This document shows, piece by piece, positions 5,306 to 46,428 of a DNA stretch of 64,000 bases (positions are counted from its first letter, which is position 1; each line of letters opens with the position of its first letter). Position numbers and translations under genes: made by a program. The DNA is from an uncultured Parcubacteria group bacterium (GTDB taxonomy: Bacteria > Patescibacteriota > Patescibacteriia > UBA9934 > CAMTUG01): positions 360-64,359 of the forward strand of contig CAMTUG010000003.1 in assembly GCA_947084965.1 (NCBI GenBank), given 5' to 3'. The notes below the pieces were generated by a model, which ran no database searches, was not told the DNA's origin, and saw only the letters and a list, made by a program, of their open reading frames with translations.

Positions 5306-5391
5306 TGGTGCTGGGGGGGAGAATCGAACTCCCACGACCTTGCGGTCACATGGTTCTAAACCATGCGTGGCTACCATTACACCACCCCAGC
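5306..5391 (-). tRNA. tRNA-Leu (anticodon UAG), CCA encoded
   Basis: Minus-strand cloverleaf: acceptor gctgggg/ccccagc, anticodon stem catgg/ccatg with loop tttagaa, long variable arm gacc-gcaa-ggtc, T-arm gggag-ttcgatt-ctccc, then A-CCA. Confidence 0.7.
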
Positions 5392-6039
5392 TTGCAACAA
5401 AAGAATTCTACTTGCGATCTCCCGCTTTCTTGGGAGGAAGTACTTTACATCATCATAATACATCGACTTTAGCAAACTTAATGAATCTTTATTACCAAAA
5501 CACAGATAATAGCAAAATTCCCCAGAATGACATTTTGATGAGCTGATCCAGCCGCGGTTAATCTGAAAGATTGTCTTTATCTTTCCGTGGATCCACTCCA
5601 GAAAGTCACGACTAGCCGACGCAAGCCTCAGACGAATTTGAGGACGGGTGGTCTCCGGATGACTAAATGTTCCGATGGTGCCATCTCCATCGATGCATCC
5701 ACGAAAGAAATCAACGAAGTAATCATCTGGAACCTGGACTGATTTGAGCTTCCTCGACTTAGCAGCCATTAATCCAATGGACGTTAGAAATTTATAAAAA
5801 TTCTTGTCTCCGAACTGAACAATAAAATATCTTTTCTCGGTTTCTCCACCGCGGACTCTCCGACCAATAGCATTATCGAGATTGAGACATCGCTTAAAAG
5901 TCCTTGCCAATTCTCCATCCTTTGAAACGAATACTATATGCCTGCCGTCGGTCGATAAATTTCCATCAGACGTGATTAACCCAATTGCATATGCCAATTC
6001 AGGTCCCCAGTTGATGTTAACTTTAGATCTTCGTTTCAT
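5377..6039 (-). CDS. LAGLIDADG homing endonuclease (two-motif, single chain)
   Basis: Motifs LAYAIGLITSDGNL and FFRGCIDGDGTIG. The last 5 codons and the TAA stop lie inside the tRNA-Leu 5' acceptor stem and D-arm. Confidence 0.8.
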   Translation of the reverse strand: MKRRSKVNINWGPELAYAIGLITSDGNLSTDGRHIVFVSKDGELARTFKRCLNLDNAIGRRVRGGETEKRYFIVQFGDKNFYKFLTSIGLMAAKSRKLKSVQVPDDYFVDFFRGCIDGDGTIGTFSHPETTRPQIRLRLASASRDFLEWIHGKIKTIFQINRGWISSSKCHSGEFCYYLCFGNKDSLSLLKSMYYDDVKYFLPRKREIASRILLLQAGVV

Positions 6040-16530: not shown

Positions 16531-18003
16531 TTGACCTTCCGTCAATTCGCAATTGGGTATATGATGAACACAATTATGGCTCATGAGTCCGGGAAACTCG
16601 CACGCAACACCGCTCTGCAGATCGCCGGAAAGGCGATCGGTATTCTTTTGGGACTCGCGACCGTCGCCGTTCTCTTCCGTTATTTGCAAGAAACGGGATT
16701 CGGAGAGTTCACGACGGCGATCACCTATCTTTCGATCTTTGCGGTGATCGTGGACTTCGGTCTGACCCTCACCACGGTCCAGATGATCTCGGAACCGGGA
16801 GCTGATGAACCGAAGATCCTCGGCAACATCTTTGCCTTACGCATTCTCTCCGGCCTCGTCGTCTTCACCCTCGCTCCGATCATCGCTCTCCTCTTCCCTT
16901 ACAGCCCAATCATCAAGTTAGCGATCGCCGTCGGTTCGATGGCCTACTTCTTCTCCTCCACTTCGCAGATGCTCGGAGGGGTTTTCCAAAAACGCCTCGA
17001 GATGTGGCGCGTCGTTCTGGCTGAGTTGGTCGGACGGTTGATCCTGCTTGTCGGTTCCGTCTTCGTTGCCCTGACCGCCGGATCGATGATCGAAGTCGTC
17101 CTCGCGATCGTCATCGGCAACTTCGCCCAACTAGCCATCACCCTCCTCCTCGCCCGGCCGTTCGTGCGCATCAAATCTGCGATCGACCTCGCTATCTGGA
17201 AGATGATCCTTAGCCGTAGCTGGCCGATCGGAGTCAGTATTATCTTCAACGTCGTCTACCTGCGCGGCGACATCCTCTTCCTTTCTTTCTTCCGCGATGA
17301 CGCCGAAGTCGGTTTCTACGGCGCGGCTTACAAAATCATCGACACCCTCACCGCCATTCCAGTTCTCTTCATGGGGCTGATCCTTCCCATGCTCGTCTCG
17401 GCCTGGTCGGACCACAACAGAGAGCGATTTGCCGCACTGATGCAGAAAAGCTTTGATTTCTTCGTTCTCCTCGGTCTCCCGATCGCCGTTGGTGCCTATG
17501 CCCTCGCTACCCCGCTCATGGTTTTGTTTGGTGGCGAGCGCTTCGCCCCGTCCGGCGCGATCCTTCAAGTCCTCGCCCCGACGATCTTCATCGTCTTTGT
17601 GGGCGCTCTCTACGGCCACGCGATCGTCGGGATCCGCAAGCAAAAACCGATGGCCTTTGGCTATGCCATAACCGCGGTCGTTTCGATCGCCGCCTACCTC
17701 TACTTCGTCCCTCGCTTCGGCGGGATCGGCGCCGCCTGGGTAACGTTCATCTCCGAAGCCCTTCTGGCCGCGATTACCTACATTGTTGTCGTCAAAACAT
17801 CCGGTGCCTCACCGCGTCTCACGATCCTTTGGAAGTCAGCTCTTGCCTGCCTGATCATGTTTGTCACGTTGACCGCAACTCCTGACATGCACGTCCTCCT
17901 CCAGGTGGTCCTTGGCGTCCTCGCTTATACCGCGGCCGCGATCGCCCTTAAGATGATCTCGGTGCGCGAAGTCCGTAACCTCTTCTTAAAGCGCGCCGTA
18001 TGA
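16531..18003 (+). CDS. MOP-superfamily polysaccharide/lipid-II flippase (Wzx/MurJ-like)
   Basis: 490 aa with about 14 TM helices and a polysaccharide-biosynthesis-protein-like layout. The true start may be a few codons downstream. Confidence 0.6.
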   Translation: MTFRQFAIGYMMNTIMAHESGKLARNTALQIAGKAIGILLGLATVAVLFRYLQETGFGEFTTAITYLSIFAVIVDFGLTLTTVQMISEPGADEPKILGNIFALRILSGLVVFTLAPIIALLFPYSPIIKLAIAVGSMAYFFSSTSQMLGGVFQKRLEMWRVVLAELVGRLILLVGSVFVALTAGSMIEVVLAIVIGNFAQLAITLLLARPFVRIKSAIDLAIWKMILSRSWPIGVSIIFNVVYLRGDILFLSFFRDDAEVGFYGAAYKIIDTLTAIPVLFMGLILPMLVSAWSDHNRERFAALMQKSFDFFVLLGLPIAVGAYALATPLMVLFGGERFAPSGAILQVLAPTIFIVFVGALYGHAIVGIRKQKPMAFGYAITAVVSIAAYLYFVPRFGGIGAAWVTFISEALLAAITYIVVVKTSGASPRLTILWKSALACLIMFVTLTATPDMHVLLQVVLGVLAYTAAAIALKMISVREVRNLFLKRAV

Positions 18004-19241
18004 TCTTTCCTATCCTCCTCGGCCTCGTCGCCTTCCTCTTTGCCTACATCGCCTTTAACGACTTGCGCCAGGCGATCATCCTCCTTCTCGGCCTCCTCCC
18101 CACCTACCTCATCCGTTTTTCTATCGGCCCATTCCCGACGACCCTCCTGGAAGTACTCCTCCTTATTCTGATTCTCGTTTGGGTCGTTCGATTTCACGGC
18201 ATCCCTGCGGCCACAACCCTCCACGGACACTGGATCTGGGCGATCCTGCTCCTCATCGCCGCCGCATCGATCGGCGTGAGCGTAGCCCCAGACACCATGG
18301 CCGCACTCGGAATCTGGAAGGCGTACATCATCGAACCGATCCTCCTCTTCCTTATCATTCGAACGACGATTAAAACAAAAACAGATATCGAGTGGGTCTT
18401 TATTGCTCTCGGGATCAGCGCAATCGTTGTCTCTATTTTTGCGATCATCCAATTCCTGACCGGCATCGGCCTCCCGATCCCCTGGGACATCGAACGCCGC
18501 GTCACCAGTTTCTATGATTTCCCAAATGCGGTCGGGTTATTCTTGGGGCCTGTTGTGACGATCGGGCTCGTGCACCTATTTCGTCCAGTCAAAGAAATCA
18601 CGTTCTCTGCCACAGGCCAGCGCTGGTTCTGGGGATTGGTCTCTGCCCTCGGGCTCGTAACGGTCATCCTCGCCAAAACCGAAGCGGCACTCGTTGCGAT
18701 CCCAGCGGCGATCCTGCTCGTTTCCTTCTTATGCAAATCGACACGCAAGTTCACGATCCCGTTCGCGATCCTCCTGGCGATCGTCGCCTTCGCGATCACT
18801 CCGGTCAAAGAAAAACTCCTCCTAGAAGACTACTCTGGCGGCATCCGCCTTTCCCAGTGGCGCGAAACGGCTGAGCTCCTCAAAGACCACGCGCTCTTCG
18901 GCACTGGCCTCTCGGGGTATCCAACAGCTCTCGCTCCGTACCACCAAGACACTTGGATCGAGATCTTCCAATACCCGCACAACATCTTCTTAAACATCTG
19001 GGTAGAATTAGGCCTCCTCGGCCTCGTTGCTTTTGTCCTCCTGGCAATCACCGTCCTGCGCAACTTCCTCCAAAACCGCAATGACCCAACGACGATCATC
19101 GCCTTCACCGCCCTCCTCGAAATGCTGATCCACGGCTTGGTCGACGTCCCCTACTTTAAAAACGACCTGGCCGTTCTAACCTGGGCACTCCTCGCCATCC
19201 TCTCCCTTTCCTCGGTTAAGATTGAACGGAAAAACCCCTAA
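18000..19241 (+). CDS. O-antigen ligase (Wzy_C)-family membrane protein
   Basis: Multi-TM protein with the periplasmic loop motif YPHNIFLNIWVELGLLGL. Confidence 0.6.
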   Translation: MIFPILLGLVAFLFAYIAFNDLRQAIILLLGLLPTYLIRFSIGPFPTTLLEVLLLILILVWVVRFHGIPAATTLHGHWIWAILLLIAAASIGVSVAPDTMAALGIWKAYIIEPILLFLIIRTTIKTKTDIEWVFIALGISAIVVSIFAIIQFLTGIGLPIPWDIERRVTSFYDFPNAVGLFLGPVVTIGLVHLFRPVKEITFSATGQRWFWGLVSALGLVTVILAKTEAALVAIPAAILLVSFLCKSTRKFTIPFAILLAIVAFAITPVKEKLLLEDYSGGIRLSQWRETAELLKDHALFGTGLSGYPTALAPYHQDTWIEIFQYPHNIFLNIWVELGLLGLVAFVLLAITVLRNFLQNRNDPTTIIAFTALLEMLIHGLVDVPYFKNDLAVLTWALLAILSLSSVKIERKNP

Positions 19242-19281: not shown

Positions 19282-19371
19282 TGGCGGAGAGGGAGGGATT
19301 CGAACCCTCGATACCCTTGCGGGTATGCGGCTTTTCGAGAGCCGTCGTTTCGACCACTCACGCACCTCTCC
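19282..19371 (-). tRNA. tRNA-Ser (anticodon CGA), CCA encoded
   Basis: Minus strand: ggagagg acceptor, anticodon loop ctcgaaa, long variable arm, T-arm gagggttcgaatccctc, then cctctcc-g-cca. Confidence 0.75.
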
Positions 19372-20359
19372 TTGTTGTGACGAAATTATTATAACGACAG
19401 ATATGCTTTGGATTATCTGACCCTATTTCGTCGAAGAACTTTTTCACATCTTGCTGTCGCCTCAGAAACACGGAATGTTGTGTCACCTTGTATGAAGGCT
19501 TGAACCCTAATCGTCGAAGCGTAGTAAAGATATCTTGAAGGAACTCCGGCGCATGACTAGTAATCGTCAGCCCGATGTGCGCGTAAAGTTTATGCTTTAT
19601 TTGGTGTTTGTCAAGGAACACGCAACCGTCCGTATCGAATAGTCCTCGAAGGAACGCCCGCTCGAATGACGGCTTGGCGTGAACCCATTCTGGAATACAT
19701 AATCCGTTATCGATCTTCTTTCCTTTTGGAACCCCGAGAGTACGGAGATGCTCAACCATCTGTTTTGAAGAAAACAAAACGAGTGTTGATTTCTCGCCTG
19801 AACGCGATCTGACGGATGCCTTAACCGAAAACAACTCCTCTCCAAGTTCTGCAACAAACTTGGCATGGTCTCCGTCCGTTTCAGAGTTTGTGACCATGAG
19901 AACTTGGTACCTAGCCAGATGACCGTCACCCGCAATAATTCCGACAAACTCTGCCAAGGCCTCGTTCTTCATGGGCATTGAGACTTGTTTCTTCAACCTA
20001 AACCCAGTTTTCAAATTTCGTTGAGCCGCAACCGATTGTAATCCGCCCTTTCGCCGACCTTCCGGAGTACCAAGATCACCATACAATTCCGCCCGGCGTT
20101 GTGCGCCCTTCCTGGCCGCGCCCTGAATATGCCAATAGTCATCAAGATACGTTGGTTGAAATGATTCTGGCTTTTTGTTGACTATAGCAGCAAGCACACG
20201 GAACGCTTCTTCTGAAATCAGATACTTACCTCGCTTCCAATCGCGCATCGTTCGTTCACACACGCCAGCCAACTCACTGAGTTGATGGCAATTAAAACCA
20301 CGCTCCTTCAACTTTCGAAACAGCTCTGTTCGCAAGGTGTCTGATAGTTTGATGCGCAT
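19358..20359 (-). CDS. LAGLIDADG homing endonuclease with N-terminal helix-turn-helix domain
   Basis: Motifs LAEFVGIIAGDGHL and FLRGLFDTDGCV, with an N-terminal HTH (LSELAGVCERTMRDW). The last 4 codons and the TGA stop lie inside the tRNA-Ser 5' end. Confidence 0.8.
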   Translation of the reverse strand: MRIKLSDTLRTELFRKLKERGFNCHQLSELAGVCERTMRDWKRGKYLISEEAFRVLAAIVNKKPESFQPTYLDDYWHIQGAARKGAQRRAELYGDLGTPEGRRKGGLQSVAAQRNLKTGFRLKKQVSMPMKNEALAEFVGIIAGDGHLARYQVLMVTNSETDGDHAKFVAELGEELFSVKASVRSRSGEKSTLVLFSSKQMVEHLRTLGVPKGKKIDNGLCIPEWVHAKPSFERAFLRGLFDTDGCVFLDKHQIKHKLYAHIGLTITSHAPEFLQDIFTTLRRLGFKPSYKVTQHSVFLRRQQDVKKFFDEIGSDNPKHICRYNNFVTTRRGA

Positions 20360-22197: not shown

Positions 22198-22282
22198 AAA
22201 AGGGGAAAACTGGGCTAGGACACCCAGTTTTTCTGTTGTATACTGTGAGAAATTCAATAGGGCGCTGTGGCTCTGTTCTCCT

Positions 22283-23146
22283 ATGCAAATCCGTAAAGTT
22301 GTCATTCCGGTCGCCGGGTACGGGACGCGTTTTTTGCCGGTCACCAAAGCGATGCCGAAAGAGATGTTGCCGATCATCGATAAGCCGGTGATTCAGTACG
22401 TGGTTGAAGAGGCGGTCGCTTCTGGAATCACCGACATTATTCTCGTGACCGGTGCGTCCAAACGGGCGGTTGAAGATCACTTCGACTACAACTACGACTT
22501 GCAGAATTGGCTCAAAAAGCAAGGCAAGCACGAACTGCGCGAGCGGATTAAGTACATCGCCGACATGGCCAACTTTACCTACATCCGCCAAAAAGGTCCG
22601 TACGGCAACGGCACGCCAGTTTTGAACGCCGAACATGTGATCGGTGACGAGCCATTTGCTGTTGTCTGGGGCGATGAATTCTTCTCAAGCAAAACTCCGC
22701 GCCTCAAGCAGTTGATCGACGTTTGGGACAAATACCAGGATCCGGTTTTGACCGGGATGAAGGTCGATAGAGCGGGATTGGATCGCTTTGGGATCGTGAG
22801 CCCGGTCGCTGAAGTTGAAAAAGGCGTTCTGCAAGTCGACGGGATTGTAGAAAAACCGGGGGCCAAAGATGCTCCATCCAACATCGCCGCACTCGGTGGA
22901 TACATTCTCCCTCCAGAAATTTTCGGTGCTCTGAAAAAAACAAAACGCGGCAAAAGCGGCGAAATCTGGCTGGCAGACGCCATCAGCAAACTGACCAAAA
23001 ACCGCCCGATGTACTGCAAGATCGTCGAAGGCGAATACCGCGACACCGGCACCAAGGAAGCCTGGCTCAAAACGAACATCGCCTTGGCTCTCGAAGACAA
23101 GGCCCTCGGACCAGACCTCAGAAAGTACATTAAGACCCTTCTCTAA
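22283..23146 (+). CDS. galU: UTP--glucose-1-phosphate uridylyltransferase
   Basis: MQIRKVVIPVAGYGTRFLPVTKAMPKEMLPIIDKP. The ORF is open upstream, but the conserved N-terminus begins at 22283. Confidence 0.85.
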   Translation: MQIRKVVIPVAGYGTRFLPVTKAMPKEMLPIIDKPVIQYVVEEAVASGITDIILVTGASKRAVEDHFDYNYDLQNWLKKQGKHELRERIKYIADMANFTYIRQKGPYGNGTPVLNAEHVIGDEPFAVVWGDEFFSSKTPRLKQLIDVWDKYQDPVLTGMKVDRAGLDRFGIVSPVAEVEKGVLQVDGIVEKPGAKDAPSNIAALGGYILPPEIFGALKKTKRGKSGEIWLADAISKLTKNRPMYCKIVEGEYRDTGTKEAWLKTNIALALEDKALGPDLRKYIKTLL

Positions 23147-23149: not shown

Positions 23150-24523
23150 ATGCGCCGACTTCTCCCCATCATTCTTCTTACTCTCACCTTAACTGGCCTT
23201 GGCTGTGGCGATGCCGATCAGGCGATCAACACCCCGGTGGCGCTTGAAATTTGGGGCGTGTTCGATAGCGAGCGCAACTACCGCGAAGTCATCGAGGCGT
23301 ATCGTCTCTTGCACCCGAACGTTTCGATTAATTTCCGCCAATTCCGCGCTGAGGAATATGAAACAGAACTTGTGCGCGCTTTGGCCGAAGGGTCCGGCCC
23401 AGACATCTTCCTCGTCCATAACGACTCGATGCGCGAATTTCAGTCTCTCATGATGCCAATGCCAAAAACGCTCACCATCGCCTACCAAGAGGTGCGCGGC
23501 ACGATCAAAAAAGAGATCGTCAACGTGTTGCGCACGGAGCAGACGATTAGTATGCGTTCTTTTGCCGACAAATTTGTCGATGTGGTGGAAGACGACGCTA
23601 TCCTCCCCTACCAGCCCGACCCGAAAGTCGCTCCTGAGGATCGCATCTACGGGCTTCCAACCGGACTCGACACTCTCGCTCTCTACTGGAACAAAGATCT
23701 GCTGAATGCCGCTGGCATCGCCGCCGCACCAACGACCTGGACGGAATTTCAAGAGGCGGTTACGTTGTTGACCAAAATCGACACCGCCGGGACGATCACC
23801 AATTCAGGAGCTGGCATCGGAACGAGTGCGAATGTGGAACGCGCGGTCGACATTCTGGCGCTCCTGATGATGCAAAACGGGACGGTCATGACTGACGAAC
23901 GCGGCCGAGCCACCTTCCACGAAATTCCAGAAGGGCTCTCGCGCAATGAACTCCCCGGCCTTGACGCCACGCGCTTCTACACCGATTTTGCCAATCCGAC
24001 CAAAGCGGTTTACACCTGGAACGCGAGCCGTCCAAATTCTTTCGACGCCTTTGCGAATGGCAGCTCGGCGATGTACTTCGGCTACGCCTATAGTCTCCCG
24101 CTGATTCGCACCGCCGCACCAAAACTCAACTTTAATATCAGTGAAATGCCCCAAATCGAAGGGGGCCGCGAGGTCAATTTCGCCAATTACTGGTTGATGG
24201 CTGTTTCCAAAGACTCCGCCGATTATAACTACGCCTGGGACTTCATTCAGTTCCTCACAACCGAAGAAGAACAGAACGCCAAGTACTTGGGTGCGGCCGG
24301 AAAACCACCGGCCCTGCGCGGCCTGATCGCTTCGCAACTTGAAGACGAAGAGCTCGCGCCGTTTGCTGCACAAGTATTAACGGCTGAATCGTGGTATCGT
24401 GGTAAGGATGCAACCGCGGCAGAGTCAGCCCTGCTCCAGTTGATCGACGCCATTCTCGCCGGGACGATCGATCCAGGCGATGCGATTGATCAAGCCGCAA
24501 GCAAAGTCAATCAAACGTTATGA
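23150..24523 (+). CDS. extracellular solute-binding protein (family 1) lipoprotein
   Basis: Lipobox LTGLGCG and an SBP_bac_1-like length and profile. No cognate permease or ATPase lies adjacent. Confidence 0.6.
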   Translation: MRRLLPIILLTLTLTGLGCGDADQAINTPVALEIWGVFDSERNYREVIEAYRLLHPNVSINFRQFRAEEYETELVRALAEGSGPDIFLVHNDSMREFQSLMMPMPKTLTIAYQEVRGTIKKEIVNVLRTEQTISMRSFADKFVDVVEDDAILPYQPDPKVAPEDRIYGLPTGLDTLALYWNKDLLNAAGIAAAPTTWTEFQEAVTLLTKIDTAGTITNSGAGIGTSANVERAVDILALLMMQNGTVMTDERGRATFHEIPEGLSRNELPGLDATRFYTDFANPTKAVYTWNASRPNSFDAFANGSSAMYFGYAYSLPLIRTAAPKLNFNISEMPQIEGGREVNFANYWLMAVSKDSADYNYAWDFIQFLTTEEEQNAKYLGAAGKPPALRGLIASQLEDEELAPFAAQVLTAESWYRGKDATAAESALLQLIDAILAGTIDPGDAIDQAASKVNQTL

Positions 24524-25146
24524 TCGGAGGAAATTGGAAAGCGGTAAGTGGTAAGTGGAAACGACCTGTCATGATTGGCGTCTCCGCTTTCTTCTTACTG
24601 CTTACTACTTTCCAGGCCCAACCGGCTAAAGCCGATTCCCCCGAAACATACTACGACCAGATCCAACGCTACGGGATCGTCTTTGCTGGGATCTGTACCG
24701 GAGACGACTGTGCCTGCCGCGATCAAGGCAACTGCACCCTCGAAGATGTGTTGCAGGTGTTCGTTAACATCAGCAACTTCATTCTGTCGATCAGCGGGTC
24801 GCTTGTACTCCTCTTCTTTGTCTATGGCGGGTTCATGTTCCTCACCTCCCAAGGGAGCCAGGAAAAAATTCAGACCGGGATGGGGTCGATGAAAGGGGCG
24901 GTCATTGGACTGCTGATCATCTTTGGGGCCTTTGCCGCAATCAACTTCCTGACCGGCGTGCTGCGCGGAGGGACGTATAGTCAAACAAACTACTGCGAAC
25001 TCGTCGCCCCGCCGGACGGCAAAGCCGGACTCGGTTGGGCCTGTCTCGATCTCGATAACCTCGACGAGGATCTCTACACCTGCGAAAGCGGACTCTGCCC
25101 CGGCCCCGCGACTCAAGTCTGCTGTATCGCCACAGAAACTGAATAA
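24520..25146 (+). CDS. pilin-like small secreted protein, paralog 1 (two-TM hairpin core plus Cys-rich C-terminal extension)
   Basis: Signal-anchor, then the core LVLLFFVYGGFMFLTSQGSQEKIQTGMGSMKGAVIGLLIIFGAFAAINF, then a tail with 7 Cys. Its start overlaps the SBP gene stop by 4 nt. Confidence 0.6.
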   Translation: MIGGNWKAVSGKWKRPVMIGVSAFFLLLTTFQAQPAKADSPETYYDQIQRYGIVFAGICTGDDCACRDQGNCTLEDVLQVFVNISNFILSISGSLVLLFFVYGGFMFLTSQGSQEKIQTGMGSMKGAVIGLLIIFGAFAAINFLTGVLRGGTYSQTNYCELVAPPDGKAGLGWACLDLDNLDEDLYTCESGLCPGPATQVCCIATETE

Positions 25147-25149
25147 TCT

Positions 25150-25488
25150 ATGCGCCAACTTTTTTTCCTTACCGTTGCCTCTGCCCTTACCTTGCCGTCT
25201 GCGGCCCTCGCCCAAGACGGCGTCACCCTCGTGAATCCCCTCGCCACGACCGACATTCGTGACATTATCGGGATCGTTATCAAGGCTGCGCTCGGCTTGT
25301 CCGGCTCGATCGCCCTCGTCATGTTTATCTGGGGTGGATTTCTTTGGTTGACGTCGCAAGGAAATACTGAGAAAATTGATGCAGGAAGAAAAACGATGAC
25401 CTGGGCCGCAATCGGATTGGTCGTTCTTTTCTCGGCGTACACGATCGTCAACGCTGTCTTCGAAGCTGCCACCGCGGCTGCCGGATAA
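25150..25488 (+). CDS. pilin-like small secreted 2-TM protein, paralog 2
   Basis: Signal peptide, then ...ALVMFIWGGFLWLTSQGNTEKIDAGRKTMTWAAIGLVVLFSAYTIVNAVF. Confidence 0.65.
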   Translation: MRQLFFLTVASALTLPSAALAQDGVTLVNPLATTDIRDIIGIVIKAALGLSGSIALVMFIWGGFLWLTSQGNTEKIDAGRKTMTWAAIGLVVLFSAYTIVNAVFEAATAAAG

Positions 25489-25513
25489 TTCAAAAAATAA
25501 CTTTAACCAAACT

Positions 25514-25918
25514 ATGACTTACGCACGTGCTCTGCGATTTGGCGTCGGGATCGTCCTCGCCTTCGCCGCCGCCTTCGCTACGATTGGGCTCACGTTACCG
25601 GCCCAGGCCCAGGACGAACTGACTACCGATGATCTCCTTCCAGAAGAATTTGGTAGCGCGACCGGTCTCGGACAGGGTGACCTGAACGAAACGATCGGGG
25701 CGATCATTCGCGCCGCGCTCGGATTCCTCGGGGTGGTCGCGGTCTGTATCATCCTCTTCGGTGGCTTTAAGTGGATGACCGCCGGTGGAAACGAAGAGAA
25801 GGTCGACGAAGCGCGCAAGTTGATCATCGCCGGGATCATCGGTCTGGCGATCATCTTGTCTGCTTACGCTATCGCCTCGTTTGTTATCGATCAACTTGTT
25901 GGAGCAACAACGGGTTAA
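25514..25918 (+). CDS. pilin-like small secreted 2-TM protein, paralog 3
   Basis: ...VCIILFGGFKWMTAGGNEEKVDEARKLIIAGIIGLAIILSAYAIASFVI. Confidence 0.65.
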   Translation: MTYARALRFGVGIVLAFAAAFATIGLTLPAQAQDELTTDDLLPEEFGSATGLGQGDLNETIGAIIRAALGFLGVVAVCIILFGGFKWMTAGGNEEKVDEARKLIIAGIIGLAIILSAYAIASFVIDQLVGATTG

Positions 25919-25989
25919 CCAAAGATCTTTCCCCCGAGGCAACTCGGGGGATGACGTGAGCGGAACTCCAAGAGATCCATTCACGCCAT

Positions 25990-26328
25990 ATGAAACTTGC
26001 ACAAGGAATTGAAGTCGGTGACACCGGCCTCAGCGACACCGCTGGCGCAGCTGGATACGGGACCGCTGGCGATTTGAACGTCATTATCGGCGACATTATC
26101 CAAGTCGCCCTCGGATTCGTCGGCTTCATCTTCTTTGCCTACGTCCTCTACGGCGGATTCCTCTGGATGACCGCCCAAGGAAAGGAAGAGCAGGTACAAA
26201 CCGCGACCGGGATTCTAAAAAACGGGATCGTCGGGCTGATCATCATCAGCGCGTCCTACGCCATCGCTGATTACGTGGTGGGCGCGATCGCCGGCCTCGG
26301 GGCGACCACGGCAACACCAGCCGGATAA
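25990..26328 (+). CDS. pilin-like small secreted 2-TM protein, paralog 4
   Basis: ...FFAYVLYGGFLWMTAQGKEEQVQTATGILKNGIVGLIIISASYAIADYVV. Confidence 0.65.
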   Translation: MKLAQGIEVGDTGLSDTAGAAGYGTAGDLNVIIGDIIQVALGFVGFIFFAYVLYGGFLWMTAQGKEEQVQTATGILKNGIVGLIIISASYAIADYVVGAIAGLGATTATPAG

Positions 26329-26331
26329 CGT

Positions 26332-26694
26332 ATGAATATTCTTCTCGCACAAGCGGACATCGGCGGATTCCTCGACGACGTAGGTCCAGAAGCGGGCCTC
26401 GCTTCGGCCACTGGCGACCCGAACGTCGCCCTGCTTCCCCTAGTCGGTGACATCATCGCGATCGTCCTCGGTCTCCTCGGCGTCGTCTTCCTTCTTCTCA
26501 CCATCTATGCCGGGATCATCTGGATGACGGCTCAGGGAAATGAAGAGAAAGTGGAGAAAGCGATCGGGATTATGAAAACAGCAACGGTCGGACTGATCGT
26601 CACCCTCGCCGCCTACTCCATCGCCAACTTCGTCGTCAGCCGAGTCGGAGACGCGACCGGAACAGCCTCGACGACGACCGGTGGTTCACAATAA
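26332..26694 (+). CDS. pilin-like small secreted 2-TM protein, paralog 5
   Basis: ...LLLTIYAGIIWMTAQGNEEKVEKAIGIMKTATVGLIVTLAAYSIANFVV. Confidence 0.65.
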   Translation: MNILLAQADIGGFLDDVGPEAGLASATGDPNVALLPLVGDIIAIVLGLLGVVFLLLTIYAGIIWMTAQGNEEKVEKAIGIMKTATVGLIVTLAAYSIANFVVSRVGDATGTASTTTGGSQ

Positions 26695-26725
26695 ATCCAA
26701 TTATCATCAAAAATTAAACATCACT

Positions 26726-27091
26726 ATGATCAAATACGCGATTTACGGTGCGGCGATCCTCCTTCCGCTCGTCGGACACGCCCAAGGGGTTACGGGACTG
26801 GAAACGAACCTGGACACGCTCGGCGGTGAAGCCTACGGCACGAGCTCCCCAACCGACCTGTTGACCCTTATCGGTACGGTCATCAACGTTCTCCTCGGGC
26901 TGCTCGGTGTGATCTTCCTTCTTCTCACCATCTACGCCGGTTTCATCTGGATGACGGCACAAGGGAACGAAGAAAAGGTGGAGAAAGCGATCGGTATTTT
27001 GAAAACCGGTATCATCGGGATGATCGTCACGCTCGCCGCTTACTCCATCGCCAACTTCGTGGTGGGAGAAGTCTCGGACGCGACCGCGTAA
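26726..27091 (+). CDS. pilin-like small secreted 2-TM protein, paralog 6
   Basis: MIKYAIYGAAILLPLVGHAQG signal peptide, then ...LLLTIYAGFIWMTAQGNEEKVEKAIGILKTGIIGMIVTLAAYSIANFVV. This is the closest copy of paralog 5. Confidence 0.65.
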   Translation: MIKYAIYGAAILLPLVGHAQGVTGLETNLDTLGGEAYGTSSPTDLLTLIGTVINVLLGLLGVIFLLLTIYAGFIWMTAQGNEEKVEKAIGILKTGIIGMIVTLAAYSIANFVVGEVSDATA

Positions 27092-27106
27092 TCAGACAAA
27101 ATGTTG

Positions 27107-27139
27107 GGGCGAGGTCTTCGGACCTCGCCTTTTGGTTTA
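27107..27139 (+). terminator. rho-independent terminator ending the galU-SBP-pilin-like gene string
   Basis: ggggcgaggtc-ttcg-gacctcgcc-ttttggttt. Confidence 0.8.
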
Positions 27140-27149: not shown

Positions 27150-27260
27150 TTCCTCGCCGCTCCGCAGAATCCCGCCACGACATAGATTCTTGGCCATTAA
27201 TGTCGTGGACGTGATCCTGACTCCGCGGTTCGGAGACAGGTCGCCGTCGAGCAGATCGCC
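27150..27260 (+). repeat. intergenic repeat element, copy B (matches 14285-14395 on the opposite strand)
   Basis: cgcagaatcccgccacgacatagattcttggccattaatgtcgtggacg. The stem is ccacgacat/atgtcgtgg, a compensatory G:C to A:T change relative to copy A. Confidence 0.6.
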
Positions 27261-27331
27261 AGGTTTTATAATAGCGTATAAATGCAGACGTCCTGGCCAC
27301 CGTAGTGTGACCAGGACGTTCGCGGTGAGAA

Positions 27332-28093
27332 CTACTCGCAGCCGCGGCCGGGAAGGCAGGTGTACTGTCCCTGCGTCCGGCCGATGACGGAGTAGCTGTA
27401 GTTGTCGCTATCGGTGATGGTGTAGATGCCGGTGGGGAGCCGGGTCAGCTCGTAGATCTTGAGGGTCCCACCGGTGGCCCCGAGAAACGTCCGGCTGACG
27501 TCCCCGGGCTCGACGACCGAGAGCCACGTGCCTCCCATGCCGTCGACGCGAGCGCCGAGCCGCCTGAGCGCCGCCGGGTCGCCCGTGACCTGGACCGCGG
27601 AAGCTTGCGCCCCGCGGTACTGGACCTGCACGTCGTCATCGAAGACGATCGCGTACGCCTTGCCGGAGGATTCCGGGTTGACGAAGGTCCAGGCCATCGG
27701 GTTCGCCGGCCGGTAGTGCCGCTCGTCCCAGCAGTCGTTCCCCCACACGTCGGACATGGAGTTGAGGGTGGAGCGACCTTCCCAGCCGGCGAAGTTCTCG
27801 CACCGTCCGACCGGGGTCGGGGGCGGCGCGATGTACTGCGTCTGCGGGGCGGGCTGGGCGACGGGGGCCGGGGGCGGGACGGCCGGGGCGGGGATCTCGT
27901 GGACCTTGCATCCGGTCACCGACCCGGTCGCCTGGTCGTACTTCTCGCAGGTGTACACCTGCGAGGTTGCGCAGTTGTACAGGGCGTAGCCGCCGCCCTC
28001 GATCGTGGCGATGTCCTGGCAGGCCAGGGAGACCGCGCGGTCGAGGGTCGTGTCGGCAGAAGCGAGAGAGGCGAAGAGGGCGATGGCGATCAT
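27332..28093 (-). CDS. secreted hypothetical protein (signal peptide, Pro-rich linker, Cys pairs); GC-rich island
   Basis: MIAIALFASLASA signal peptide. Strong G/C third-position bias in this frame. Confidence 0.5.
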   Translation of the reverse strand: MIAIALFASLASADTTLDRAVSLACQDIATIEGGGYALYNCATSQVYTCEKYDQATGSVTGCKVHEIPAPAVPPPAPVAQPAPQTQYIAPPPTPVGRCENFAGWEGRSTLNSMSDVWGNDCWDERHYRPANPMAWTFVNPESSGKAYAIVFDDDVQVQYRGAQASAVQVTGDPAALRRLGARVDGMGGTWLSVVEPGDVSRTFLGATGGTLKIYELTRLPTGIYTITDSDNYSYSVIGRTQGQYTCLPGRGCE

Positions 28094-28184
28094 GGGGGAC
28101 TCCGTAGGTTTTGGGCGATCGCCGGACCCTCACGGGCCGGCGGGGTGTGTGTCTTGTCCGCGACAGGAACACCCCGCCGACGAA

Positions 28185-28790
28185 CTACTTGCTGGCTTCG
28201 GTGTCGAGGACGCGCCACTGGCGCGCGTTCTCGAGCTCGACCGCGGCCAGGCGCGCATCGACAGCGGTCGTGGTCGGCGTGGTGCTGGCGGTGACCACCG
28301 TGCCCGGGGCGGCCCCGTAGCGCGGCATCATGTCGTACCCCGGCACCACGGTCCCGTAGGACGTGTAGCCGGAGCCGGTCACGACGGTCGGCCCGCGGTA
28401 GGGCATCGACCCGCCACCGCTCGCCTGGCCCGGGTACACCGGGTTGACCGAGGAGTAGATGGGGCGGCCCTGCGCGTCGTAGGACAGCACCGTCTGCGCC
28501 GGCACGGCCGAGGTCACCGTCTGGCTGCGCCCGTCCTGGGCCGCCGTCACGGTGTTGTCGCGGTCCATGGCGCGGGCGGTCGCCCCGGCCACGACCAGAC
28601 GGCCGGCGGCGTCCATGCAGGACGTCCCGCCGAGCCCGAGGACGGTGTTGCACGGCACGGTCGCCGTGACGCTGCCGTCGCTCGAGATGGTGACCACCGC
28701 CGACTTCGCGCTGGGGGTGGCCGGCGGGGGCCGGGGGGTGGAATCCTGGGCGAACGCGAGTCCGGCCAGGACGAGGATGAAGATGGACAT
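28185..28790 (-). CDS. secreted hypothetical protein (S/T/G-rich); GC-rich island
   Basis: MSIFILVLAGLAFA signal peptide. GC3-rich frame. Confidence 0.5.
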   Translation of the reverse strand: MSIFILVLAGLAFAQDSTPRPPPATPSAKSAVVTISSDGSVTATVPCNTVLGLGGTSCMDAAGRLVVAGATARAMDRDNTVTAAQDGRSQTVTSAVPAQTVLSYDAQGRPIYSSVNPVYPGQASGGGSMPYRGPTVVTGSGYTSYGTVVPGYDMMPRYGAAPGTVVTASTTPTTTAVDARLAAVELENARQWRVLDTEASK

Positions 28791-28930
28791 GAGAGCCCTC
28801 CTGTGGTGAATTGGGGCGTCTTAGATCTGATCAGTTTGGTGGAAGCAAGATGCTTCCGACCATAAGTCCGAACCAAAACGCCCAAATTCACGGGGCTTTC
28901 CAATCATTTGTTGCCTTAGAGCAACGTACA

Positions 28931-29012
28931 AAGATAGCACAAAAATGGCTTTTTGTCAACCGTCTTCGGGTGCGTCGATGGATTGACAAAATCGCATTTT
29001 TGTGCTATTTTA
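28931..29012 (+). promoter_or_regulatory. sigma70-like promoter TTGACA-17-TATTTT flanked by two related palindromes (candidate operators) in the divergent intergenic region
   Basis: atagcacaaaaatg at 28934-28947 and catttttgtgctat at 28995-29008 are reverse complements. ttgaca at 28983-28988, a 17-nt spacer, and tatttt at 29006-29011. Confidence 0.45.
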
Positions 29013-29141
29013 CTAGGTCCCGTTTGAGCCAGAAATAAGGCCAAATACGGGAAATCCTTGCTCTCTCACAACTGAATAAACCCTGTTGTAAGAGAAATCG
29101 TTTCTCGCGAATCCCAACCTATCACCAATTAGGAGGCCACC

Positions 29142-30368
29142 ATGGCCATTTCCGCTGAAGCCCGCTCGTTCCTCACGGCCCTGGGCCTCGGAGCGATCGG
29201 CGAGTCGGTCTCCGGACCGCTCATCGACGCGATCAAGTCGGCGGCCGGCACCGCCGCGCAGTACGACGCGATCGGGAATTTCCTCGCCGAGACGATCGGT
29301 TCGCTCCCGGAGCCCGCCCGCAAGGCGCTCGCCGGGAAGTTCAAGGTCGTGGCCCACATCGCCTTCGAGGCGATCGAGCTGTGGTTGAAGAACATCCTGC
29401 GCAAGCGGGGCGTGAACCACGTCACGCGCGACGCGATCGTCAACGTCCTCGACGATGTCGGGGATGCGCTCATCACGAGTGCGGCGACGGCGATCACCGA
29501 AGCCGAGTTCAAGCAGATCATCCGAGACGCGGCCGCGGCCCGCAAGGCCAACCCGACCGCGCCCCAGAAGTACCCCCATCCCACCATCACCGCCGCCGAG
29601 CGCGGCACCGGAGCCCCCATGACCATTCACCCCTGGATGACGGAGGTCTGCCCGGCGCTGGTGGGGATCTCCCCGCTCGCGTCCGAGCGCCTCGCGGCGA
29701 TCTTCAAGAAGTACAAGCTCGCGGCGGCGCGGATCGGGGGCGACGACCCGAACGAGCCCCCCTTCGCCCGCAACAGCAAGAAGAACATCCTGGCCCTCCT
29801 GCGAGTGGACCCGGAGCGGGCGCTCGCGATCCTCGAGGATCCGGACATCGACGACGACGAAGCGGAGGAGAAGTTCCTGCTCGCGGGGGAAGTGATCCGC
29901 GACAAGCAGGGCATGGACGCCGACGACATCCTCGACTACCTGGACCACGGCCGCTACCAGATCATCAGCGGGCAGAAGGGCAAGGCGGCGCAGTGGTTGT
30001 ACAAGGGCGGGATCGGACTGATCTCCGCCTACGTGCTCCTCTGCGTGTTCTCCGCCCTGATCCTGGTCATCGGCACGCCCGTGTCGCTGATCGCGACCAT
30101 CTACTTCACCCACTTCCTCGATCCGGTCGTCGAGATCAACGGAGTCCCCCACGTCGCCCTCCCCGAGACCGGTTGGCTGGCGATCTCCTTCGCGATGCTC
30201 GTGTTCTCCCTCGGACAGCTGATGATCCTCAGCGTCCTGTGGGGGCCCATGCGTGCCCTGAAGGCGATCGTCGCCAAGCCGATCCAGATCCTCGTCGACG
30301 CCGCCGAAGCAGTGATGCCCGGCGGCGAACCCGAAACCACCACTACCACCACCGGCGCCGCTCACTAG
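29142..30368 (+). CDS. hypothetical protein with C-terminal TM helices; GC-rich island
   Basis: ATG preceded by aggagg. GC3-rich frame; the other long ORFs overlapping this region are high-GC artefacts. Confidence 0.5.
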   Translation: MAISAEARSFLTALGLGAIGESVSGPLIDAIKSAAGTAAQYDAIGNFLAETIGSLPEPARKALAGKFKVVAHIAFEAIELWLKNILRKRGVNHVTRDAIVNVLDDVGDALITSAATAITEAEFKQIIRDAAAARKANPTAPQKYPHPTITAAERGTGAPMTIHPWMTEVCPALVGISPLASERLAAIFKKYKLAAARIGGDDPNEPPFARNSKKNILALLRVDPERALAILEDPDIDDDEAEEKFLLAGEVIRDKQGMDADDILDYLDHGRYQIISGQKGKAAQWLYKGGIGLISAYVLLCVFSALILVIGTPVSLIATIYFTHFLDPVVEINGVPHVALPETGWLAISFAMLVFSLGQLMILSVLWGPMRALKAIVAKPIQILVDAAEAVMPGGEPETTTTTTGAAH

Positions 30369-30386
30369 GGCGCCACGGAGACTTCC

Positions 30387-31208
30387 ATGAGTTCTACCCC
30401 CACCCCCCCGGCCGGTGGCGCCCCCGCCCCGGCTTCCCCCACCCCCAAGCCGATCGGCGAGGAGCCCGCGGTCCGCAAGGCCCGGGTCGCCCTCGCGGTC
30501 GCCCGACTCGACAAGGAGCGTCGGGCCGCGGAGGAGCCCGACGATCCGGACCTCAAGCGCAAGCCCCTCAGCGCCGCCGAGTCCACCTGGTGGGTCTGGG
30601 GTGTCTGGGTGACCCTCGGAGCCCTGGCCTTCATCGGCCTGGTGCTCCGAGCGGTCTCTCCGCACCTCTCGCTGCACCCGGCGGCCACCGGCGTCGCGAT
30701 GCTGGTGGTCACCATCTCCCTGTTCATGGCCGGACTCAGCCTGCGCAAGACGTTCCCCCACCGCATCGTCCTGGGGAAGTCGCTGAACTACCTGTTCTGG
30801 GGGATGATGATCCTGACGGTCTGGAACGGAACGCGCATCGTCTACGGCTTCGGTGGGATCCCCGTGGACCCCGACCCGCGCAACTGGGCCTGGCCGAGCG
30901 CGGTGGCGACGACCGTCTCGGGCTGGATGACCCCCGAGAGCGACGCGGCGAAGCTGGCCAAGATCGAGGCCGACTTCAAGGCCTGCGCTGCCACGACCGA
31001 CGCGGAGATCCTCAAGGCGTGTGGCGAGATCCGCACGCAGAAGATCGACGCGCTGGCCGGCCGCAAGCCCCCCGCGACGGCCGCCGTGACGCCCACGACC
31101 CCCCCGCCCACGAAGAAGCCGGGGAGCGGGTCGAAGAAGGCGACGGTGAAGCCGGCCTACTGCAGCGACCCGGCCATCGCTGCCCAAATGCCCTCGACCT
31201 GCGGCTGA
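30387..31208 (+). CDS. hypothetical multi-TM membrane protein with Pro/Ala-rich N-terminus; GC-rich island
   Basis: GC3-rich frame. About 4 TM helices and a C-terminal Cys pair. Confidence 0.5.
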   Translation: MSSTPTPPAGGAPAPASPTPKPIGEEPAVRKARVALAVARLDKERRAAEEPDDPDLKRKPLSAAESTWWVWGVWVTLGALAFIGLVLRAVSPHLSLHPAATGVAMLVVTISLFMAGLSLRKTFPHRIVLGKSLNYLFWGMMILTVWNGTRIVYGFGGIPVDPDPRNWAWPSAVATTVSGWMTPESDAAKLAKIEADFKACAATTDAEILKACGEIRTQKIDALAGRKPPATAAVTPTTPPPTKKPGSGSKKATVKPAYCSDPAIAAQMPSTCG

Positions 31209-31241
31209 GCGCTCACGCGCAAAATAGCGGGTCAACGTAAA

Positions 31242-31271
31242 GCGCCCCCGGACATTCTGTTCCGGGGGCGC
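31242..31271. terminator. strong bidirectional rho-independent terminator
   Basis: gcgcccccgga-cattctgt-tccgggggcgc, then ctacttttctc. Confidence 0.8.
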
Positions 31272-46194: not shown

Positions 46195-46428
46195 ACTTAC
46201 TTGTAGTTAAATTTTTTCCTTAAAGGATCCGGTATCGATAGTAAGGGTGTGGATGGCGTGGGTAAGTCGATTCGGTGTTGGTCGGCCGGAACATTTTTGT
46301 GGACGAACCCTGTGTGAAAGAGACGGACAGTCGATCTAAAACAGTGGATGATTTTTTTCTTCTGTTTCTGTCCACACTCCGTCCACCACGATTCTCACAG
46401 ATCCTCCGGTTGGTTTTCCACCGCTCAT
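46195..46428. other. oriC part 2: DnaA-box cluster between dnaA and dnaN
   Basis: Boxes tgtggatgg 46248, ttgtggacg 46297, cagtggatg 46342, tgtccacac 46369, cgtccacca 46380. Confidence 0.6.

What the first reader, a model, noticed from the sequence alone, without database searches (positions are those of the whole stretch)
24520..27139. Tandem array of six diverged paralogs encoding VirB2/TrbC-like (two-TM-hairpin) secreted mini-proteins, co-directional with galU and an orphan solute-binding lipoprotein
Six consecutive plus-strand genes of 112-208 aa each encode a signal peptide, a variable N-terminal region, and a conserved C-terminal core of about 60 aa. The core has two hydrophobic helices joined by a charged loop, with consensus (Y/F)(G/A)GF(L/I)W(M/L)T(A/S)QGNEEKV(E/D)KA ... 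G(L/I)(I/V)...(A/S)AY(S/A)IAN(F/Y)VV. This is the architecture of conjugative/T4SS pilins (VirB2/TrbC): a short, signal-processed, two-TM hairpin. No VirB4/VirD4 ATPase or other T4SS gene is in the window. Paralogs 5 and 6 are about 85% identical at the DNA level over the core, which points to a recent duplication. Paralog 1 is the most divergent and carries an extra Cys-rich tail with 7 Cys. The array is translationally coupled to the upstream gene through a 4-nt overlap with an orphan family-1 solute-binding lipoprotein, itself 4 nt after galU, and it ends at a strong terminator. A diversified multi-copy surface or pilus subunit family of this kind suggests a surface appendage or host-contact structure, possibly glycosylated given the link to UDP-glucose synthesis. 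I know of no described system with this layout.
Basis: partly seen in the sequence, partly recalled or inferred. Interest (0 to 1): 0.85.

Follow-up and report, generated by a model that had tools for sequence, protein, structure and literature searches.

The report
VirB2-like pilin gene array, Patescibacteria
Six neighbouring small genes encode known VirB2-like type IV secretion pilins of ultra-small Patescibacteria; such arrays are already described, but its conserved operon with a sugar-binding lipoprotein and GalU appears unreported.

Summary
The six tandem genes are real (24520-27091, + strand). All six reach the curated threshold of Pfam PF18895 (T4SS_pilin). Tandem arrays of 2-11 VirB2-like pilin genes are reported in 383 Patescibacteria assemblies, and a six-pilin array is essential in Southlakia epibionticum.

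Corrections:
- Only four of the six have a signal peptide.
- The P1 tail has 6 Cys, not 7.
- P5/P6 core DNA identity is 84%.

No type IV secretion (T4SS) machinery gene was found in the ORFs scanned in the window, nor among the recurrent or large genes sampled within 10 kb of 80 related loci.

What I add:
- The galU-SBP-pilin operon is conserved across about 70 species-level genomes, mostly Candidatus Uhrbacteria.
- The six array positions are orthologous between species, so this is a fixed set of distinct subunits rather than a recent expansion.
- A strong RNA hairpin after the third pilin is conserved.
- The lipoprotein SBP plus a Cys-rich P1-type pilin is the most persistent pair.
- A fast-evolving, GC3-rich gene block follows the array in most relatives.

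Verdict: new member of a known kind, with an undescribed conserved operon context. The function (pilus or conduit of a T4SS encoded elsewhere) is inferred.

The parts
22217..22244 (+). Promoter-like site (AGGACA-16-TATACT) about 40 nt upstream of galU; candidate operon start
   Evidence: Consensus scan. The number of such sites is not above the shuffle expectation, so this is weak. A hairpin at 22206-22231 closes the upstream gene.
22283..23146 (+). galU-like UTP--glucose-1-phosphate uridylyltransferase (287 aa), first gene of the operon
   Evidence: NTP_transferase 106.6 bits. TIGR01099 galU scores 311.7 bits against a cut-off of 326.8. It lies adjacent upstream of the SBP gene in 59 of 74 related loci.
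23150..24523 (+). Family-1 (carbohydrate-type) solute-binding lipoprotein (457 aa) with no partner permease nearby
   Evidence: SBP_bac_1 97.8 bits and SBP_bac_8 95.4 bits. The nearest solved relatives are sugar or oligosaccharide SBPs (4qrz, E 2.8e-14). A signal peptide followed by G-x-G-C was seen in all 59 orthologue N-termini that my script could anchor, and in the others I read. 378 species genomes encode a relative.
24520..25146 (+). Pilin P1 (208 aa): leader, Cys-containing N-terminal ectodomain, hairpin, and a Cys-rich C-terminal beta mini-domain
   Evidence: PF18895 32.8 bits. It overlaps the SBP stop by 4 nt. Cys66 and Cys72 are conserved in 72 and 67 of 74 orthologues; the tail is present in about half of them. 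AF2 model: helices 74-108 and 114-148, strands 174-204, pLDDT about 90.
25150..25488 (+). Pilin P2 (112 aa), with signal peptide
   Evidence: PF18895 48.5 bits; TrbC PF04956 25.3 bits, below the GA of 27.9. AF2 hairpin, helices 36-68 and 73-111.
25514..25918 (+). Pilin P3 (134 aa), with signal peptide; the most conserved position between species
   Evidence: PF18895 37.9 bits. Median 59% identity to orthologues, against 42-47% for the other positions.
25931..25989 (+). Two adjacent RNA hairpins in the P3-P4 spacer. The second pairs the region just upstream of the P4 ATG
   Evidence: MFE -34.6 kcal/mol, z -5.5, and 0 of 200 shuffles fold as well. Across 36 six-gene arrays, the 60 nt after pilin 3 fold with median -20 kcal/mol. 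That is close to the value after pilin 6 (-22.3) and far from the -5 to -8 seen after pilins 1, 2, 4 and 5.
25990..26328 (+). Pilin P4 (112 aa), no signal peptide
   Evidence: PF18895 26.6 bits, exactly at the gathering score. No N-terminal hydrophobic segment, and an in-frame stop upstream.
26332..26694 (+). Pilin P5 (120 aa), no canonical signal peptide
   Evidence: PF18895 31.8 bits. Its best match anywhere is P6 of the same array, at 68.8% aa identity.
26726..27091 (+). Pilin P6 (121 aa from ATG 26726), with signal peptide
   Evidence: PF18895 35.3 bits. Public gene calls use the 121-aa form.
27106..27139 (+). Intrinsic terminator closing the operon
   Evidence: An 11-bp stem with 7 GC pairs, a TTCG loop and a T-run.

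Best explanation
The region is a chromosomal operon: galU, a sugar-type solute-binding lipoprotein, then six VirB2-like pilins (Pfam T4SS_pilin). The host is a Patescibacterium related to Candidatus Uhrbacteria.

Proposed mechanism:
1. Each pilin inserts into the cytoplasmic membrane as a two-helix hairpin. P1, P2, P3 and P6 use a cleaved Sec leader. P4 and P5 have no leader.
2. A VirB4-driven, monoderm-type type IV secretion system encoded elsewhere in the genome extracts the subunits and assembles them into a pilus or short cell-envelope conduit. That structure is used in the epibiotic contact with a host bacterium.
3. The six genes are distinct, position-conserved subunit types rather than interchangeable variants. 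P1 carries Cys-rich ectodomains and always follows the SBP gene, so it is probably a specialised subunit (tip, base or adhesive). P3 is the most conserved and is followed by a conserved hairpin, so it is a candidate major subunit.
4. The hairpin probably sets different transcript levels for the genes before and after it.
5. The lipoprotein SBP and GalU are co-transcribed. They probably act in carbohydrate recognition and in the supply of UDP-glucose for surface or pilin glycans.

Shown here: family membership, hairpin architecture, operon structure, conservation and positional orthology. Inferred: pilus assembly, subunit roles, and the roles of the SBP and GalU.
For: - All six ORFs reach the PF18895 gathering score. 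88 of 88 relatives hit PF18895 and 21 of 88 also hit TrbC/VirB2. There are sub-threshold hits to the Mycoplasma ICE pilin-like family NF045849.
- AF2 gives confident helical hairpins.
- Literature: VirB2-like arrays in 383 Patescibacteria assemblies, and pilins detected in 1,948 assemblies that also carry VirB4 (PMC12102498). The six-pilin array and the T4SS are essential in S. epibionticum.
- Operon structure: gaps of -4 to 71 nt, one flanking terminator, and a hairpin closing the upstream gene.
- Conservation: in 70 of 74 SBP-orthologue loci with at least 1 kb of downstream sequence, a pilin starts within 700 nt of the SBP stop. galU is adjacent in 59 of 74. Other neighbours recur in at most 25 of 80 loci.
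- Positional orthology: the best non-self hit of position i is position i of another genome (27/27, 29/29, 29/29, 31/31, 28/34, 29/32).
- The hairpin after pilin 3 is conserved.
- The SBP is a conserved lipoprotein of sugar-binding type.
Against: - No VirB4, VirD4, VirB6 or other T4SS domain was found in the window, in about 48 ORFs scanned. None was found among the 20 representative neighbour genes (recurrent or large families) scanned from within 10 kb of the related loci. The rest of the genome could not be read.
- In the papers I read, the pili of these systems are called 'predicted' or 'potential'.
- Two of the six genes lack a leader.
Confidence: 0.75

Rival explanations
1. Variation cassette. 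The paralogs are interchangeable major pilins kept for antigenic variation or host-range variation, as proposed for Patescibacteria arrays and for the Bartonella and Anaplasma virB2 paralogs.
For: - The idea is suggested in PMC12102498.
- Low pairwise identity of 25-38%.
- Positions 4-6 are less cleanly resolved against the window paralogs.
- P5 and P6 are locally homogenised, and the copy number varies from 4 to 10 between genomes.
Against: - Every position has its closest relative at the same position in other species. The set is old and fixed, not turning over.
- Positions 1-3 are strictly orthologous (35/35, 35/35 and 29/35).
- I looked for no inversion or recombination signals, and none came up in passing.
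Confidence: 0.12
2. Uptake or channel module independent of a T4SS. The hairpin proteins form a membrane pore or scaffold that works directly with the orphan sugar-binding lipoprotein. In effect this would replace an ABC permease, or tether the SBP.
For: - The SBP-pilin linkage is near-universal (70 of 74 loci). The SBP plus one P1-type pilin persists when the rest of the array is absent.
- No MalFG-type permease was found in the window among the ORFs scanned, and no T4SS genes were found within 10 kb.
Against: - The family is homologous to VirB2/TrbC pilins.
- In other Patescibacteria classes the same family sits next to virB4 (1,135 assemblies).
- There is no precedent for an SBP working with two-TM hairpin proteins.
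Confidence: 0.08
3. Unrelated small membrane proteins (holin-like, bacteriocin-immunity-like or similar) that only mimic the two-TM layout.
For: The fold is a generic helical hairpin that also matches the ATP-synthase c subunit and designed hairpins. There are weak chance hits to various membrane-protein Pfams.
Against: All six pass the curated PF18895 threshold. No holin or immunity family hits appear at E <= 0.1. No phage or toxin context is present.
Confidence: 0.03

Closest known systems
VirB2-like pilin arrays of Patescibacteria (Quinonero-Coronel et al. 2025, PMC12102498): 441 arrays of 2-11 genes in 383 assemblies
   Same: The same Pfam family (PF18895), a tandem layout, low identity within the array, a chromosomal location and no relaxase context.
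   Different: - That paper does not mention galU, a solute-binding protein, positional orthology or an internal hairpin.
- It reads the arrays as possible host-range variation.
- P5/P6 here are 69% identical, above the 54% maximum it reports.
Essential six-pilin cluster inside the T4SS locus of Southlakia epibionticum ML1 (Wang et al. 2023, PMC10633639; review PMC12857230)
   Same: Six sequence-divergent, structurally similar VirB2-like pilins in one cluster, in a monoderm epibiont.
   Different: - In S. epibionticum the pilins lie within the VirB4/VirB6 gene cluster.
- Here no T4SS gene was found in the ORFs scanned, which lie up to about 24 kb upstream and 36 kb downstream of the array.
- Here the array is fused into an operon with galU and an SBP gene.
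- The class differs: Saccharimonadia there, against Uhrbacteria here (class ABY1 from my own knowledge of GTDB).
VirB2 / TrbC / TraA conjugative pilins of diderm T4SS (Pfam PF04956)
   Same: A leader peptide plus a two-helix hydrophobic hairpin with a short polar loop. There is sub-threshold profile similarity (P2 25.3 bits; 21 of 88 relatives hit).
   Different: - The scores are below the PF04956 gathering score.
- There are multiple subunit types.
- Two of the six have no leader.
- The host is a monoderm.
- No VirB5 or other VirB gene lies nearby.
Tandem virB2 paralogs of Bartonella and Anaplasma phagocytophilum T4SS (cited in PMC12102498)
   Same: Several diverged VirB2 copies side by side.
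   Different: Those are read as surface-variation sets in pathogens of animals. Here the copies are position-orthologous across species.
Mbov_0395 / MMCAP2_0565 pilin-like conjugal transfer protein of Mycoplasma ICEs (NCBIfam NF045849)
   Same: A pilin-like hairpin protein of a monoderm T4SS. All six ORFs hit this model at E 2.5e-10 to 3.8e-4.
   Different: All scores (20-40 bits) are below the 40-bit cut-off. The Mycoplasma protein is a single gene in a mobile element, not a chromosomal array.

Membership tests
Pfam PF18895 T4SS_pilin | Whole-protein score at or above the curated gathering score (26.6 bits) | tested here: met
   32.8, 48.5, 37.9, 26.6, 31.8 and 35.3 bits for P1-P6. P4 is exactly at threshold. 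Precomputed PF18895 hits exist on the public copies.
Pfam PF18895 T4SS_pilin | A core of about 70 aa made of two hydrophobic helices joined by a short polar loop | tested here: met
   Hydropathy segments. AF2 helices 36-68 and 73-111 in P2, and 74-108 and 114-148 in P1, with pLDDT above 90.
VirB2/TrbC conjugative pilins (PF04956) | Score at or above the gathering score (27.9 bits) | tested here: not met
   Best is P2 at 25.3 bits (E 1.8e-5); P1 scores 15.2 bits. 21 of 88 relatives hit at E <= 0.01. This indicates homology at superfamily level only.
VirB2/TrbC conjugative pilins (PF04956) | Cleavable N-terminal leader before the hairpin | tested here: inconclusive
   Present in P1, P2, P3 and P6; absent in P4 and P5. 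Judged from hydropathy and AxA motifs only, because no SignalP-type tool was available.
VirB2/TrbC conjugative pilins (PF04956) | Encoded with, or in a genome that has, VirB4 and the other mating-pair-formation genes | tested here: inconclusive
   None in the window. None among the 20 representative neighbour genes (recurrent or large families) scanned from within 10 kb of the related loci. The rest of the 134,912-bp contig and of the genome could not be read.
VirB2/TrbC conjugative pilins (PF04956) | Polymerises into an extracellular pilus | not testable with these tools
   This needs microscopy or biochemistry. No multimer prediction was available.
Patescibacterial VirB2 arrays (PMC12102498) | Two or more pilin-family genes in tandem, or separated by one non-pilin gene, in a Patescibacteria genome | tested here: met
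   Six genes in tandem. The closest SBP and pilin relatives are Candidatus Uhrbacteria, Magasanikbacteria, Buchananbacteria and 'Patescibacteria group' MAGs.
Type IV pilins (T4P, N_methyl PF07963) | Prepilin-peptidase leader and a conserved N-terminal hydrophobic helix | tested here: not met
   No PF07963 hit at E <= 0.1. I see no G/FTLIE-type motif in the sequences.
Sortase-assembled Gram-positive pilins | C-terminal LPXTG sorting signal | tested here: not met
   Reading the six sequences, I see no LPXTG in any of them.
ABC-transporter family-1 solute-binding proteins | SBP_bac_1/8 domain with a lipoprotein or secretory signal | tested here: met
   97.8 and 95.4 bits. A conserved leader plus G-x-G-C.
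ABC-transporter family-1 solute-binding proteins | Adjacent MalFG-type permeases and an ATPase | tested here: not met
   The only ABC genes found in the window are a LivHMGF-type set with its own Peripla_BP_6 SBP at 40.6-45.0 kb. None appeared among the neighbour families scanned from the 80 related loci.
GalU (TIGR01099) | Equivalog score at or above the cut-off (326.8 bits) | tested here: inconclusive
   311.7 bits over the full model, E 4e-93. This is slightly below the cut-off, as can be expected for a divergent lineage. I call it GalU-like.

The most novel reading that the evidence does not exclude
The galU-SBP-pilin operon is a single functional machine specific to class-ABY1 Patescibacteria. 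It would be a heteromeric T4SS pilus or conduit built from six fixed subunit types. Its Cys-rich P1 subunit would work with a membrane-anchored sugar-binding lipoprotein to recognise or harvest host cell-wall carbohydrate. GalU would feed UDP-glucose for pilin or surface glycosylation, or process the captured sugar. The internal hairpin would set subunit stoichiometry. The fast-evolving GC3-rich secreted and membrane proteins encoded just downstream would be its substrates or partners.
Probability: 0.2. Interest if true: 0.65.

Novelty: new member of a known kind. Interest (0 to 1): 0.35.

Why it matters
The T4SS and its pilins are essential in the only genetically tractable Patescibacterium, yet their function is called 'completely unknown' (PMC11665869). 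A conserved operon that ties the pilins to a carbohydrate-binding lipoprotein and to UDP-glucose synthesis gives three concrete, testable handles:
- the SBP ligand;
- pilin glycosylation;
- subunit stoichiometry across the internal hairpin.

The array positions are orthologous over dozens of species. That argues for a heteromeric structure with specialised subunits rather than antigenic variation. The array itself is not new.

Tried and rejected
- A PDB sequence search with the pilin profile returned only artefactual sums of weak repeats in designed 'Pizza' proteins.
I give it little weight.
- I tried to read beyond the window with proteins near its ends. Only short Logan contigs came back, with no T4SS genes.
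- I considered the GC-rich block after the array as foreign DNA or a prophage. I rejected that as the simple answer. There are no PHROG hits. The same GC excess of 2-13 points occurs at the same place in 30 of 37 related loci and tracks each genome's own GC. The closest relative has positional homologues.
- I considered type IV (T4P) pilins, sortase pilins and holins. The sequence features rule them out.
- Literature searches for a galU/SBP-pilin link found nothing. The library is incomplete, so this is not proof of novelty.

Full report
**1. What is in the sequence**

The six + strand ORFs exist as described:
- P1 24520-25146 (208 aa)
- P2 25150-25488 (112 aa)
- P3 25514-25918 (134 aa)
- P4 25990-26328 (112 aa)
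- P5 26332-26694 (120 aa)
- P6 to 27091. The first possible start is GTG 26681. Public gene calls use ATG 26726, which gives 121 aa with a normal leader.

Upstream lie a GalU-like gene (22283-23146) and a family-1 solute-binding protein (SBP) gene (23150-24523). The gaps between successive genes are:
- galU to SBP: 3 nt
- SBP to P1: -4 nt (an ATGA overlap)
- P1 to P2: 3 nt
- P2 to P3: 25 nt
- P3 to P4: 71 nt
- P4 to P5: 3 nt
- P5 to P6: 31 nt

(All.) A strong terminator follows at 27106-27131. A hairpin at 22206-22231 and a promoter-like site at 22217-22244 precede galU. The unit therefore looks like one operon of eight genes.

The six proteins share a core of about 70 aa: two hydrophobic helices and a polar loop (W-M/L-T-A/S-x-G-N-E-E-K). 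Identity to P1 is 25-33%.

**2.

- P1, P2, P3 and P6 have an N-terminal hydrophobic leader ending in an AxA-like site. P4 and P5 do not.
  - An in-frame stop lies 11 codons upstream of the P4 ATG, and P5 starts 3 nt after the P4 stop.
  - This is not a local defect. In 36 related six-gene arrays, 13 of 34 position-5 genes and 5 of 28 position-4 genes also lack such a segment.
- P1 has 10 Cys: 4 before the first helix and 6 in the tail.
- P5/P6 DNA identity is 83.6% over the two helices and 78.5% over 219 nt.

**3. What the genes are**

- All six reach the curated threshold of Pfam PF18895, 'Type IV secretion system pilin'.
- P2 also matches TrbC/VirB2 (PF04956) over nearly the whole model at 25.3 bits, just under the threshold of 27.9. 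21 of 88 relatives match that model.
- All six give sub-threshold hits to the pilin-like conjugal transfer protein of Mycoplasma ICEs.
- AlphaFold2 with an 88-sequence alignment gives a helical hairpin for P2 with pLDDT above 90 in the core.
- Fold searches cannot tell this hairpin from any other. The assignment therefore rests on the sequence profiles.
- Relatives are numerous. They come from Patescibacteria MAGs, and some are named 'pilin' by NCBI.

**4. What is already known**

- Quinonero-Coronel et al. 2025 (PMC12102498) searched 3,035 Patescibacteria genomes with PF18895 and other profiles. They report VirB2-like pilins in 1,948 assemblies that also carry VirB4. The pilins lie near virB4 in only 1,135 of these. 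They also report 441 arrays of 2-11 pilin genes in 383 assemblies, with a mean identity of 25%.
- Wang et al. 2023 found a series of predicted pilins inside the essential T4SS cluster of S. epibionticum. A 2025 review counts six of them and calls them essential.
- The statement 'no described system with this layout' therefore does not hold for the array itself.

**5. T4SS machinery**

- About 48 window ORFs were scanned against Pfam. They include every non-spurious ORF of 400 aa or more; the 740-aa and 619-aa ORFs in the GC-rich block were judged spurious and not scanned.
- They are housekeeping or unknown genes, including dnaA, dnaN, recA, ftsK, PBP1a, ruvB, Wzx, Wzy_C, SpoIID, NifS/NifU, PGI and a LivHMGF ABC system. 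No VirB4, VirD4, VirB6 or VirB8 domain appeared.
- The rest of the source contig could not be read.
- Whether the genome has a T4SS therefore remains untested here. The literature says most pilin-bearing assemblies do.

**6. The operon context is conserved**

Using the SBP as a probe, 378 species-representative genomes encode a relative. The best 80 are mostly Candidatus Uhrbacteria, plus Buchananbacteria and unnamed Patescibacteria. A Magasanikbacteria locus has the same layout.
- In 70 of 74 loci with at least 1 kb of downstream sequence, a pilin-family ORF starts within 700 nt of the SBP stop.
- In two of the four exceptions the array lies inverted a few kb away.
- galU is the adjacent upstream gene in 59 of 74 loci.
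- Every other neighbour family recurs in 25 loci or fewer.
- Twenty representative neighbour genes (recurrent or large families) were scanned against Pfam, and none is a T4SS gene.
- Where at least 4.5 kb of downstream sequence is available, 27 of 55 loci have exactly six pilins. The full range is 0-10. Eleven loci have only one, a long Cys-rich P1-type pilin.
- In the SBP N-termini I examined, a leader is followed by G-x-G-C, which is a lipoprotein signature.
- The nearest solved relatives of the SBP bind sugars or oligosaccharides.
- I found no paper that mentions this linkage.

**7. The six positions are orthologous**

- In all-against-all comparisons, the best non-self match of a gene at position i is a gene at position i of another genome:
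  - position 1: 27/27
  - position 2: 29/29
  - position 3: 29/29
  - position 4: 31/31
  - position 5: 28/34
  - position 6: 29/32

- The array is therefore an old, fixed set of six distinct subunit types, not a recent or ongoing expansion.
- The window's P5 is an exception. Its best match is its neighbour P6 at 68.8% aa identity, which points to local gene conversion or re-duplication.
- P3 is the most conserved position, with a median 59% identity.

**8. P1**

- The P1 group has a near-invariant Cys pair in the motif C-x-C-R-D-x-G-N-C-x-L-x-D just before helix 1 (72 and 67 of 74 sequences).
- Its C-terminal Cys-rich extension is variable. It is present in about half of the orthologues and reaches 64 Cys in a 935-aa protein.
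- AF2 predicts the hairpin plus a small three-stranded domain for the tail, with pLDDT about 90.
- With a VirB2-like topology both ends face outward. That fits disulfide-bonded surface modules. This step is inference.

**9. Internal hairpin**

- The P3-P4 spacer folds into two hairpins (-34.6 kcal/mol, z -5.5).
- Across 36 arrays, the 60 nt after pilin 3 fold about as strongly as the terminator region after pilin 6 (medians -20.0 and -22.3 kcal/mol). After pilins 1, 2, 4 and 5 the median is -5 to -8.
- I infer a conserved partial terminator or 3' stabiliser that sets different levels for the genes on either side. The pap pilus operon is a known analogue (from my own knowledge).

**10. Mechanism and confidence**

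The best-supported explanation is a set of VirB2-like subunits for a monoderm-type T4SS encoded elsewhere, organised in a lineage-wide operon with a carbohydrate-binding lipoprotein and GalU.
- Shown: family membership, hairpin architecture, operon structure, conservation and positional orthology.
- Inferred: assembly into a pilus, the division of labour among subunits, and the roles of the SBP and GalU.

Rivals, with my confidence in each:
- a variation cassette (0.12), weakened by the positional orthology;
- an SBP-linked channel independent of a T4SS (0.08), which has no precedent;
- unrelated small membrane proteins (0.03), contradicted by the profile hits.

**11. Verdict**

This is a new member of a known kind. 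The family assignment is right, and the claim of novelty is wrong for the array. The operon context, the fixed six-subunit set and the internal hairpin are apparently undescribed. They give modest but real added value. Interest: 0.35.

Noticed in passing
window 27150-31250: Four ORFs directly after the array terminator have GC3 of 0.92-0.97, against 0.64 in the flanking genes. They are 27332-28093 (-), 28185-28790 (-), 29142-30368 (+) and 30387-31208 (+). They have no Pfam or PHROG hit. The 408-aa ORF has no detectable homologue among 5.8 billion proteins. Two have signal peptides and two have multiple TM segments. The same GC excess (2-13 points) occurs just after the array in 30 of 37 related loci and tracks each genome's own GC. 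Positional homologues exist only in the closest relative, L011. This is a position-conserved, fast-evolving, GC3-elevated gene set, and it is unexplained.
   Followed up: partly
window 25931-25989; related loci L010-L088: A strong double RNA hairpin between the third and fourth pilin genes, conserved across 36 six-gene arrays. It is as stable as the operon terminators.
   Followed up: partly
loci L060, L062, L066, L067, L069, L070, L073, L074, L077, L081, L083-L085: More distant genomes keep only the SBP gene plus one long, very Cys-rich P1-type pilin (up to 32 Cys). In the 10-13 of these loci with enough downstream sequence, a HTH_25/Glucodextran_B protein and recA follow. The same two genes lie at 49110-52307 in the window.
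   Followed up: partly
window 16531-19241: A Wzx-type flippase (Polysacc_synt) and a Wzy_C/O-antigen-ligase-family gene lie 3-6 kb upstream of galU. They recur near the operon in 23-25 of 80 related loci. From my own knowledge, the Wzy_C family includes pilin O-glycosyltransferases, so a glycosylation link is conceivable but untested.
   Followed up: no
window 19282-20359 and 5306-6039: A LAGLIDADG_3 ORF (19358-20359, -) overlaps the end of tRNA-Ser (19282-19371). A second ORF with a faint LAGLIDADG hit (5377-6039, -) overlaps tRNA-Leu (5306-5391). These are homing-endonuclease-like genes abutting tRNA genes.
   Followed up: no
window 63391-64000 and beyond (L090 2-4654): An ORF of at least 1,550 aa with no Pfam hit runs off the right end of the window, next to an 832-aa TPR protein.
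   Followed up: no
window 45052-48866: dnaN, dnaA and rnpA, together with a minimum of cumulative GC skew near 44-46 kb, mark the replication origin about 19 kb from the pilin operon. PMC12102498 notes that T4SS genes often lie near the origin in Patescibacteria.
   Followed up: no
window 26332-27091: P5 and P6 are 68.8% identical in protein and 84% in core DNA. That is above the 54% maximum reported for Patescibacteria arrays, and 20 of the 36 differing core codons are synonymous. It looks like local gene conversion or re-duplication within an otherwise ancient set.
   Followed up: partly
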